Source: Leucoraja ocellata
Taxonomy: Eukaryota
Assembly: GCA_036785375.1 (NCBI GenBank)
Contig: JAWMAR010000421.1
Span: 620,001-684,000 of the forward strand
Direction: 5' to 3'
Length of the DNA: 64,000 nucleotides
In this document: positions 43,103-46,100 of the stretch, piece after piece
Position numbering within the stretch: position 1 is the first letter of the stretch
Layout: each line of letters opens with the position of its first letter
Program-made: the position numbers and the translations under genes
Notes under the pieces: generated by a model
What the model saw: the letters and a program-made list of their open reading frames with translations, nothing else
The model's database searches: none
Told to the model about the DNA's origin: nothing

Positions 43103-46100
43103 TCACATTCCTGGGTTCCTAGCTGAGAACAGGTTGCAGTAAAAGTCAAAGTGCTGGTCAGTTAGTGAAGGTTGAAAACTCTGAAGAGAGTTCATGAAGT
43201 GCATTTGTGTCACTGCGGCAGCATCAAGCCCATTTTCTTGTAGAGACAATAACGCAGCCTGTCAGAGGAATAAGAGATGAAAATTAAACATCTGACGACT
43301 CTGTGGTATAAGTTACAGGACACATAGAGGTGTCCGCACAGCCCAGGCCAGTCTGGGGACATAATCATGCCAACCTGGAGCTGTTGTGTCAGAGAGGGGA
43401 TGGGCCAGAGGAGGTGGTGGTGGAATAAATGGGACTTTCCCAAGGTTGACTGATTACACTGGGAACATTGAATGAACAACAAGGAAGTTGAAACCGAAAG
43501 TGAAACACAAATTCTTGCAACAATTCCAAGAAGTTCAGCAGCAGAGTAATAAACAAGTGCAGAGTGCAACAAACCGAACAAGAGTTTGTTACCAGGTCAG
43601 TGCAGCCGGTGTCCTTCATCTGACTACTTCACTCTACAGATGCTACCTGACTCACTGAATTCCTCCAGCACTTTGTTGTCTGGTCGATAATCTAGGGCTG
43701 GACTAATCTCATAATACAGCAGAGAGCATAAATTTATAAAATTGTAATTTTTCTCACAGGAGATAATGGATACAAACAGCTGATATTTAGTGTCCATCCC
43801 TAACCATGCCTGAACTGAGGAAGCAGTTTAAAGTTGTTGGATCTGGATTCGTGGGTGACAGAAAGGGTGAGGACGGCAGACTTTCTCGCACAGAAATTAA
43901 TGAACCAGCTGTGATTAAGACAATTTGGTGGTTTCACTATTATCAATCCTGAGATTAATTTAATTCCAGATTCACTTAATTAATTAAAGTTAAATGCCTT
44001 GTAGCCATGGAGGGATTCAGAGCATCACACTGAATCAATGGTCTGCACTCCAGATACCCATGCAATGGTGTAACCACTTCATGGTCATCCTCATCTACCT
44101 CTTCTGTACTAAATTCTGGAATGAAAAGCTGGAGTCTGTGCTGCAATGATTCAATGGGCTTGTGTGGTCAGGGAAGGAAACCTGGTGTCTTTACCCCGTG
44201 GGCAATGCAGTACCCACAGCAATGAAATGGGCCGCATTCCCTCAGTGATGACAAAACATCACATTGATGGCAGATTTATACAGTTACAGAACTCAGCAGC
44301 CACACAGAGAAGCAATCCGCAGATATGCATACCAGGTATGTTCAGGTTAGTTTCAGATTTTCATCATCCGCAACAATTTAGATATATGCAGAGGACTTCA
44401 GTAGATTTGCAAAGTATTGCAATGGCTAGAGGATGTGTTGTGATAACAGTAAATGCCTCAAGAAAATGGCTGTTTCACCATAACACAGCAGCAGCAATCA
44501 TTGAGTTACACCACCTCAACCTGTGCATTCACCTCGGGTAAGCAGACAGTAGAGTTACAGTTCTCTTGCTGTGTTTCAGCAAACTGAATGCATCTGCCAA
44601 TTTCCCCAACGATGTTCACATCCCACGTAAGCAGTTATACTGCCCCTGGGACGAGGCATTATAAACTAACGGCATGACAAACTCACCGCAGTGCCTGACG
44701 TCTGAGAACACTTATGGTTCCAACTCAGCATTGCTTTGCTAGTTTAAGGTACATGGAGCTCCAGCCTTGTCTGACCTGCACCACAATCCACATATCTATG
44801 TTCACTCAAAATCTAAAATGCATCTCTACTTCCCTTTAAAGAGTTTGTTTTTACATTTTTGCCCTTTCCCTGTTCGGCTGCCCTGATAATGACTGCCTGT
44901 AAACCCTCGCTTGATACAGAGAGTGAAAGACCTGGCCCGACTCCCAATCCGGCCACTACAATCCCATGCTGTCAGCGCACTCACCTCCTTGCACAAATTC
45001 TGTAAATCTGCTCCAGTAAATCCTGCGGTCACAGCTCCTAGCTCCTTCAGGCACACGCCATCCAGTGGCGTTTTGGAAGTGCAGATCCTCAGAATGGAAA
45101 GTCTTGCCTAACATGTAAAAAATGTTAATTAGTAACCAAGAAAAAGTGTAGAGATGATCACAATGCAAATTGACCACTATCTAAACAATTTCACTGAAAA
45201 TGTGATCATCTGATCATTTCTTGTTGTTTTTGGAACATTATTATACACAGGCGCTGATATATTACTGTGTCAGTGAGGTTTGGAAATACTTTATATAAAC
45301 ACAGGACTGTCCTAAGCGTGACATATAAACGTTCCAATTAAAGGCAGAAGTGTAGTACACCTTTATCCACAGCTCTTTGTGTCTTCAAAAAACTCCAATA
45401 AATTGGCCACACGTGATTTCTCTTCCCTCCCCGTTGTGTTGACCTGATCATCCCGATTTGTTTGCAAGTGCTTTGCTATGACATTTTAATAATAGCGTTT
45501 AACGTTTTTCCAATGACAGATGTTAAAACTGACAGGACCGTAATTTCCCTTTTTCTGTCTCCCTCCCATTTTGAATAAAGTACATTTGCTACTTTCAAAA
45601 CTAATGCAACCGTCCCTGGAATTACGAAGTTAAGAAAAATTGAAACCTATGGGTCAACCATCTACTGTTTTTTAAGGGCTTTTCCAGGACACAGTGACCC
45701 ATACGTCATCAACTCCACAAGTCGCTCGGATGATTGTTATTTTCCGACTTGCTCTCTGTTCCCGATTCTGGAATTTGAGCTATCTCTAATAGCTGCGCTC
45801 TGCAATGGTTTATCAAATGGTGGCCACTTCAACAAAACATTCAATGGAACTTTATTTATCCCAAGAGGAAAATTGATCTGCCAACAGCCATAAAAACACA
45901 AAATATATAAAGCATGAAATTAAAGTGACGAGTGGAAAGTACAGAAGTGCATCATCAACATCTCTTGAACATACTCGCCTCTTCATCTGGGGGTGGAACA
46001 TAGATGATTTGATCAAAGCGGCCAGGTCGCAGTAAAGCATCGTCCAAGAGATCTGGTCGATTCGTAGCAGCAATCACAATGACGCCTTTGTTACAAATTT

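What the first reader, a model, noticed from the sequence alone, without database searches (positions are those of the whole stretch)
43431..43532. Compact NF-kB + ETS + triple ISRE + GAS cluster ~3 kb upstream of C15orf48, hidden in the last AFG2B intron
Seen within 102 bp: the canonical kB decamer GGGACTTTCC, AGGAAGT, the triple-GAAA IRF element GAAACCGAAAGTGAAAC and TTCCAAGAA (TTCNNNGAA). Known: these are NF-kB, ETS/PU.1, IRF/ISGF3 and STAT consensus sites, and mammalian C15orf48 is strongly induced by NF-kB/interferon signals. Inference: an innate-immune enhancer, suggesting that inflammatory switching of the complex IV subunit already operates in cartilaginous fish.
Basis: partly seen in the sequence, partly recalled or inferred. 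Interest (0 to 1): 0.7.

Follow-up and report, generated by a model that had tools for sequence, protein, structure and literature searches.

The report
Candidate immune enhancer of ray C15orf48
Four immune-signal binding motifs are packed into 102 bases about 3 kb in front of a ray or skate's C15orf48 gene, more tightly than chance usually gives, so they likely switch this mitochondrial gene on during infection as in mammals, though this is untested and the gene's mammalian microRNA partner was not found here.

Summary
All four motifs are at the stated places, in the last AFG2B intron (junction shown by RNA contigs), 3.06 kb upstream of an intact C15orf48. No four-class cluster arose in 600 kb of this genome or 20 Mb of simulated DNA; allowing any of nine immune motif classes, the chance is about 0.005 per window. 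In the two most distant relatives laid (about 4-5% divergent) the kB, ETS, GAS and double-ISRE core are unchanged, but the third GAAA is broken in both, and the constraint test is not significant (0/38 vs 15/276, p=0.14). The flagged copy lies in a 16.2-kb tandem duplication whose AFG2B lacks exon 1; the other copy and the other contig carry two kB sites. The leap to a mammalian-type complex IV switch is only partly backed: miR-147b was not found in the C15orf48 3'UTR, nor its site in the NDUFA4-like 3'UTR. Verdict: likely an ordinary NF-kB/IRF/STAT enhancer of a known inflammation-induced gene, newly seen in a cartilaginous fish; function and target untested.

The parts
43431..43440 (+). Canonical NF-kB decamer (one site in this copy; the other copy and contig C780 have two in tandem, a 13-bp indel)
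   Evidence: no substitution in relatives D and E
43482..43488 (+). ETS/PU.1-type core, one base before the ISRE (three bases between its GGAA and the first GAAA, so not the two-base EICE spacing, which is recalled)
   Evidence: unchanged in D and E
43490..43501 (+). ISRE core: two GAAA half-sites two bases apart plus flank
   Evidence: unchanged in D and E; canonical form as given in PMC6954429
43502..43506 (+). Third GAAA half-site making a tripartite ISRE; not conserved
   Evidence: substitutions at 43502 and 43506 in both D and E
43524..43532 (+). GAS/STAT palindrome TTCNNNGAA; the commonest of the four motifs (0.29 per kb)
   Evidence: unchanged in D and E
43259..44984 (-). Last intron of AFG2B (copy 1), host of the cluster
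   Evidence: splice junction in RNA contigs of 2 of 2 runs; exon map
43103..43258 (-). Coding part of the last AFG2B exon (copy 1)
   Evidence: tblastn with stored AFG2B proteins
43616..43677 (.). Short high-copy repeat tail (SINE-like, name recalled) beside the cluster, not overlapping it
37408..40369 (-). C15orf48 copy 1, coding exons 40369-40331, 39785-39697, 39252-39192, 37476-37408; GC-box/CpG-rich 5' region at about 40450-40620
36353..52597 (.). Copy 1 of a 16.2-kb tandem duplication: whole C15orf48 plus AFG2B exons 2-8, without AFG2B exon 1
52643..64000 (.). Copy 2 of the duplication (runs on past the window; continues into the complete AFG2B)
59401..59515 (+). Second copy of the cluster, with two kB sites (59401-59410, 59414-59423), 2.9 kb upstream of the second intact C15orf48

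Best explanation
This is a real, compact cluster of NF-kB, ETS, ISRE and GAS motifs in the last AFG2B intron that likely acts as a signal-responsive enhancer and would raise transcription of C15orf48, 3 kb away, after microbial or interferon stimulation. Shown: the sites, their rarity as a group, the intronic position, the intact neighbouring gene, and retention of the four core sites in two relatives. Inferred from mammalian and teleost work: an ETS factor keeps the element open, NF-kB and IRF/ISGF3 or STAT bind after Toll-like-receptor, cytokine or interferon signalling, and the element contacts the GC-box promoter of C15orf48, which has no consensus kB, ISRE or GAS site of its own. The kB site and the double-GAAA core are the likely working parts; the third GAAA is dispensable. 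Any effect on complex IV would go through the protein alone, since miR-147b and its NDUFA4 site were not found.
For: Clustering: 0 in 600 kb real background, 0 in 20 Mb Markov; analytic rate about 8e-10 per base, 8e-6 within a 10-kb span; with 9 classes allowed 3 per 30 Mb, about 0.001 per 10 kb. Top-scoring cluster of the window, 7.6 against a background best of 5.1. Not repeat-derived: the cluster matched only its 3 copies among 41 listed genome matches (40 of 656 candidates scored), and 0 of 54 background BLAST hits cover it. Core sites unchanged in 2 of 2 distant relatives although indels lie on both sides of the kB site; the other allele has a second kB site. No consensus ISRE or GAS lies in 39000-43260, and the one exact kB match there is in intron 2 at 39569, none upstream of the start codon. 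The viperin gene of this genome has a canonical ISRE about 290 bp upstream of its first open frame, so the motif is used here as expected (one gene, weak control). Mammalian C15orf48 is LPS, IL-1/TNF and (mouse) IFN-beta induced, with RelA bound at the human promoter.
Against: No functional data. The cluster segment is no more conserved than its flanks (5/145 and 10/185 differences against about 3.4-4.6% in neighbouring pieces). Only relatives within about 5% were reachable; no shark or bony fish alignment. Consensus patterns, not weight matrices, were used. Human macrophage C15orf48 is not IFN-beta induced.
Confidence: 0.6

Rival explanations
1. A chance or drifting collection of short consensus matches with no regulatory role, picked out because a genome scan looks at very many windows and many motif sets.
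For: About 340 equally scoring clusters expected per genome and 0.005 per window; no significant constraint; third half-site broken twice, and indels of 28 and 17 bases next to the kB site in relatives; GAS and ETS matches are common (0.29 and 0.19 per kb).
Against: The neighbour is a gene known beforehand to be NF-kB/interferon responsive, and the chance of such a cluster within 10 kb of a named gene is about 0.001; the kB decamer and ISRE core are rare exact forms (1 and 4 in 600 kb); none of the 15 differences hits the 38 core bases.
Confidence: 0.22
2. A real immune-responsive enhancer whose main target is another gene of the locus (AFG2B itself, SLC30A4 or genes beyond AFG2B), or several of them.
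For: It lies inside AFG2B; enhancers need not act on the nearest promoter (general knowledge). In the intact copy AFG2B's first coding exon begins 10.5 kb away.
Against: The C15orf48 start codon is much nearer (2.9-3.1 kb) and is the gene of the locus with a published inflammatory induction; the element travelled with C15orf48 in the duplication, which left AFG2B exon 1 behind.
Confidence: 0.1
3. The cluster is the proximal promoter of an inducible antisense (plus-strand) non-coding transcript nested in the AFG2B intron; all motifs face the same way and splice-like signals follow at about 43596, 43760 and 43867.
For: Tight same-strand kB/ETS/ISRE spacing resembles interferon-stimulated promoters (recalled; PMC3688568 passages); donor- and acceptor-like sequences are visible.
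Against: No coding potential: relatives carry frame-breaking indels through the downstream intron (table 4). Splice-like words of this kind are common by chance.
Confidence: 0.08

Closest known systems
Mammalian C15orf48 (NMES1/MOCCI/MISTRAV/COXFA4L3) regulatory region
   Same: Same gene and the same predicted inputs: RelA binds the human promoter (PMC10831050, passages), one NF-kB site and HIF sites in a 1.8-kb human promoter (PMC13652134, passages), IFNAR/IRF3/JAK dependence in mouse (PMC8654286, passages).
   Different: The tested mammalian sites are promoter-proximal; here the sites sit 3 kb away in the neighbour's intron and combine kB, ISRE and GAS in 102 bp. No homology to a mammalian element could be tested.
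IRF3/IRF9-bound enhancers with tripartite ISRE, kB, GAS and ETS-IRF motifs (PMC6954429, abstract and passages)
   Same: Same motif grammar: tripartite ISRE plus kB favours IRF3, GAS favours IRF9, PU.1/IRF8 prime such regions.
   Different: Those are defined by ChIP-seq and accessibility in mouse dendritic cells; here only sequence is known, and the tripartite form is not conserved.
MISTR circuit: C15orf48 protein and miR-147b against NDUFA4 (PMC7793259 section 10 and passages; PMC8035321 passages)
   Same: C15orf48 and an NDUFA4-like gene are both present and intact in the exons examined.
   Different: miR-147b was not found in the C15orf48 3'UTR and the shared miR-147b/miR-210 core site was not found in the first 900 nt after the NDUFA4-like stop codon. 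Zebrafish lost the microRNA but kept the site.

Membership tests
Signal-responsive NF-kB/IRF/STAT enhancer | Heterotypic cluster of consensus sites denser than background | tested here: met
Signal-responsive NF-kB/IRF/STAT enhancer | Non-coding, non-exonic position within reach of an inducible gene | tested here: met
   intron shown by RNA contigs; 3.06 kb from the C15orf48 start codon
Signal-responsive NF-kB/IRF/STAT enhancer | Sites under purifying selection relative to flanks | tested here: inconclusive
Signal-responsive NF-kB/IRF/STAT enhancer | Inducible accessibility, factor binding and reporter activity | not testable with these tools
   no chromatin or stimulated RNA data available
Tripartite ISRE (TISRE) | Three GAAA half-sites at two-base spacing | tested here: met
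   present in all 3 copies of this genome; broken in relatives D and E, so not a conserved feature
C15orf48 orthologue | B12D domain, four coding exons, position between AFG2B and SLC30A4, not NDUFA4 | tested here: met
   the human gene order is recalled; no named C15orf48 protein was aligned
MISTR bifunctional locus (protein plus miR-147b) | miR-147b hairpin in the C15orf48 3'UTR | tested here: not met
   best ungapped match 12 of 22 in the 257-nt UTR, local score reached by 48 of 500 shuffles; no exact 17-mer in the genome, 5 one-mismatch hits all on other contigs; no miR-147 family among 11 Rfam matches at E<=10 (not checked whether Rfam holds that family)
MISTR bifunctional locus (protein plus miR-147b) | miR-147b/miR-210 site in the NDUFA4 3'UTR | tested here: not met
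   no 6-base core site in 900 nt after the stop in 2 of 2 copies on C212; the true UTR end is not known and a further paralogue could be missed (35 candidates scored)
MISTR bifunctional locus (protein plus miR-147b) | Replacement of NDUFA4 by C15ORF48 in complex IV on stimulation | not testable with these tools
   needs proteomics or native gels

The most novel reading that the evidence does not exclude
Rays carry one compact enhancer that joins both inputs that mammals split between species (NF-kB in human, interferon/JAK-STAT in mouse), pointing to dual control of C15orf48 in the jawed-vertebrate ancestor, while sharks and rays have lost miR-147 and, in this ray, its NDUFA4 site: a natural protein-only version of the inflammatory complex IV switch, with enhancer dose and kB number varying between alleles of one animal.
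Probability: 0.3. Interest if true: 0.55.

Novelty: new member of a known kind. Interest (0 to 1): 0.33.

Why it matters
If active, it dates immune control of a respiratory-chain subunit to before the shark/bony-fish split and gives a 100-bp element to test. Because miR-147 seems absent (not found here; MirGeneDB 2.1 lists it for elephant shark, lamprey and gar but not catshark), elasmobranchs would separate the protein arm from the microRNA arm, which mammalian studies have had to do by engineering. The kind of element itself is ordinary.

Tried and rejected
Antisense transcript: 0 of 2 RNA-type contig sets (one related species, two studies, tissue unknown) cover 43261-43612; recorded only as no cover, not as evidence. 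No RNA run was on record as a main holder. Nested protein-coding gene in the intron: rejected, no recognisable frame and indels in relatives. Repeat origin of the motifs: rejected as far as tested. Assembly artefact for the duplication: unlikely but not excluded; the three versions have interleaved private substitutions (25, 61, 51 of 137 isolated sites), which two haplotypes alone cannot give, but copies 1 and 2 have no substitution between them over about 48-52.6 kb and no reads were laid on the junction. A 7-base match to the start of miR-147b just after the C15orf48 stop codon does not sit in a hairpin (z -1.2, 26 of 200 shuffles as stable). Relative C could not be resolved (3 of 6 differences listed) and relative B shows no substitution in the motifs but 4 gap letters of unlisted place. 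Literature: searches (listings only) showed no paper on this element or on C15orf48 induction in cartilaginous fish; PMC11934927 does not mention the gene; PMC3384580 and PMC4390885 were irrelevant; the 2009 mouse miR-147 promoter paper was not obtained. Earlier scan findings: none relevant. Naming C15orf48 by direct protein search was not achieved (exons too short).

Full report
Observation. The four motifs are in the sequence at the stated places: kB decamer 43431-43440, ETS core 43482-43488, three GAAA half-sites 43490-43506 and a GAS palindrome 43524-43532. The same scan showed the whole set again at 59401-59515.

Gene context. The minus-strand AAA gene is AFG2B/SPATA5L1; the best named hits are from batoids at 89-91% identity, so the animal is most likely a ray or skate. 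Its last exon starts at 43258 and the exon before ends at 44985; contigs from 2 of 2 RNA-type runs of a close relative stop at this acceptor and go on into exon 7, so the cluster is intronic, 173 bp from the acceptor. A B12D-family gene has four coding exons from 40369 to 37408 with AG/GT ends. It lies between AFG2B and SLC30A4. Its exon 2 finds no solved structure, whereas the paralogue on contig C212 matches NDUFA4 at E 1e-9. With the recalled human gene order this identifies it as C15orf48. The kB site is 3062 bp from its start codon.

Duplication. Window 36353-52597 is repeated head to tail from 52643 to 4.6 kb past the window's end. Another contig, C780, holds the region once. Copy 1 has AFG2B exons 2-8 but not exon 1 (residues 1-400), which occurs only after copy 2; so the flagged cluster is in a 5'-truncated AFG2B copy. 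Both C15orf48 copies have identical coding exons and splice ends. Copy 2 and C780 carry two kB sites in tandem; copy 1 has one through a 13-bp indel. The three versions have interleaved private substitutions (25, 61 and 51 of 137 isolated sites), which favours a true duplication over a haplotype artefact; the junction was not tested with reads.

Chance. In 60 stretches (600 kb) of this genome no 102-300-bp window held all four classes, and none of 102 or 150 bp held three; 20 Mb of order-4 Markov sequence gave 0 four-class clusters. The analytic rate is about 8e-10 per base, 2.6 per genome. The cluster is thus unusual for a gene named beforehand, not unique genome-wide. The patterns are recalled consensus strings, not weight matrices. 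The cluster is not part of the adjacent repeat at 43616-43677, and the ETS-plus-triple pattern occurs only in its 3 copies.

Conservation. Four related organisms (B-E; 17, 43, 93 and 117 substitutions over 2501 bases) all hold the region. D and E were resolved base by base. The kB decamer, ETS core, double-GAAA core and GAS have no change; the third half-site is broken in both (43502, 43506). All four relatives have 28 extra bases just before the kB site and D has 17 extra bases after it. No shark or bony-fish sequence could be aligned.

Mechanism. Shown steps end there. The likely working model is a distal signal-responsive enhancer: ETS priming, NF-kB and IRF/ISGF3 or STAT binding, contact with the GC-box promoter of C15orf48. 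Between the start codon and the AFG2B last exon there is no exact kB, ISRE or GAS match (three one-mismatch kB-like sites at 41526-42805 besides others at 41891 and 42079; one exact kB in intron 2). The grammar fits mouse IRF3/IRF9-bound regions (PMC6954429, abstract and passages); ISREs drive zebrafish IFIT induction (PMC3688568, passages); and this genome's viperin gene has a canonical ISRE about 290 bp upstream of its first open frame, a single weak control since such decamers occur at 0.1 per kb.

In mammals the gene is induced by LPS, IL-1 and TNF; IFN-beta induces it in mouse but not human macrophages, and the authors call the pathways divergent (PMC8654286, passages). RelA binding was shown at -307 to -100 of the human gene (PMC10831050, passages). 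The subunit switch uses both the protein and miR-147b (PMC8035321, passages; PMC7793259, section 10). Here the published 22-mer (PMC4198252, one passage) matches at best 12 of 22 in the 257-nt 3'UTR and 14 of 22 in 33000-40500, at shuffle level; no exact 17-mer exists in the genome and the 5 one-mismatch hits lie on other contigs; the NDUFA4-like gene lacks the core site in 900 nt after its stop in both copies. MirGeneDB 2.1 supplementary table 2 (rows found by search) lists Mir-147 for elephant shark, lamprey and gar, not for catshark, zebrafish or hagfish. So the microRNA looks lost in elasmobranchs (inference from two species), and a switch here, if any, would be protein-only. Figures and supplements of the C15orf48 papers were not seen and may hold shark alignments.

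Novelty and verdict. Nine literature searches (listings only) showed no description of this element. It is a new candidate member of a well-known kind. Interest 0.33.

Noticed in passing
window 36353-52597 and 52643-64000 (G000:C421, to about 688587): 16.2-kb tandem duplication giving two intact C15orf48 genes, each with its cluster, and one AFG2B copy without exon 1; junction falls in a short C-rich tandem repeat; single copy on contig C780.
   Followed up: partly
window 37150-37407 (C15orf48 3'UTR) and L093/L094 (C212, NDUFA4-like 3'UTR): Neither miR-147b nor its shared miR-147b/miR-210 site in NDUFA4 was found; MirGeneDB also lacks Mir-147 for catshark but has it for elephant shark and lamprey. 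Possible elasmobranch loss of the microRNA arm.
   Followed up: partly
G000:C212:1983385 and 2053144 (L080, L081): The NDUFA4-like gene is present twice on one contig about 70 kb apart; no NDUFA4L2-type third paralogue surfaced in the family search (35 candidates scored).
   Followed up: no
window 43430-43446, relatives B-E: Turnover around the kB site: 28 extra bases upstream in all four relatives (in E they add a second ETS core next to the kB site) and 17 extra bases downstream in D holding a partial reverse kB-like word.
   Followed up: partly
window 43596, 43760, 43867, 44337-44630 (+ strand): Donor- and acceptor-like sequences downstream of the cluster on the plus strand; could mark an antisense non-coding transcript or be chance.
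   Followed up: partly
L105, G000:C43:6149117 and 6155550: Canonical ISREs upstream of the viperin (RSAD2) gene of this genome.
   Followed up: partly
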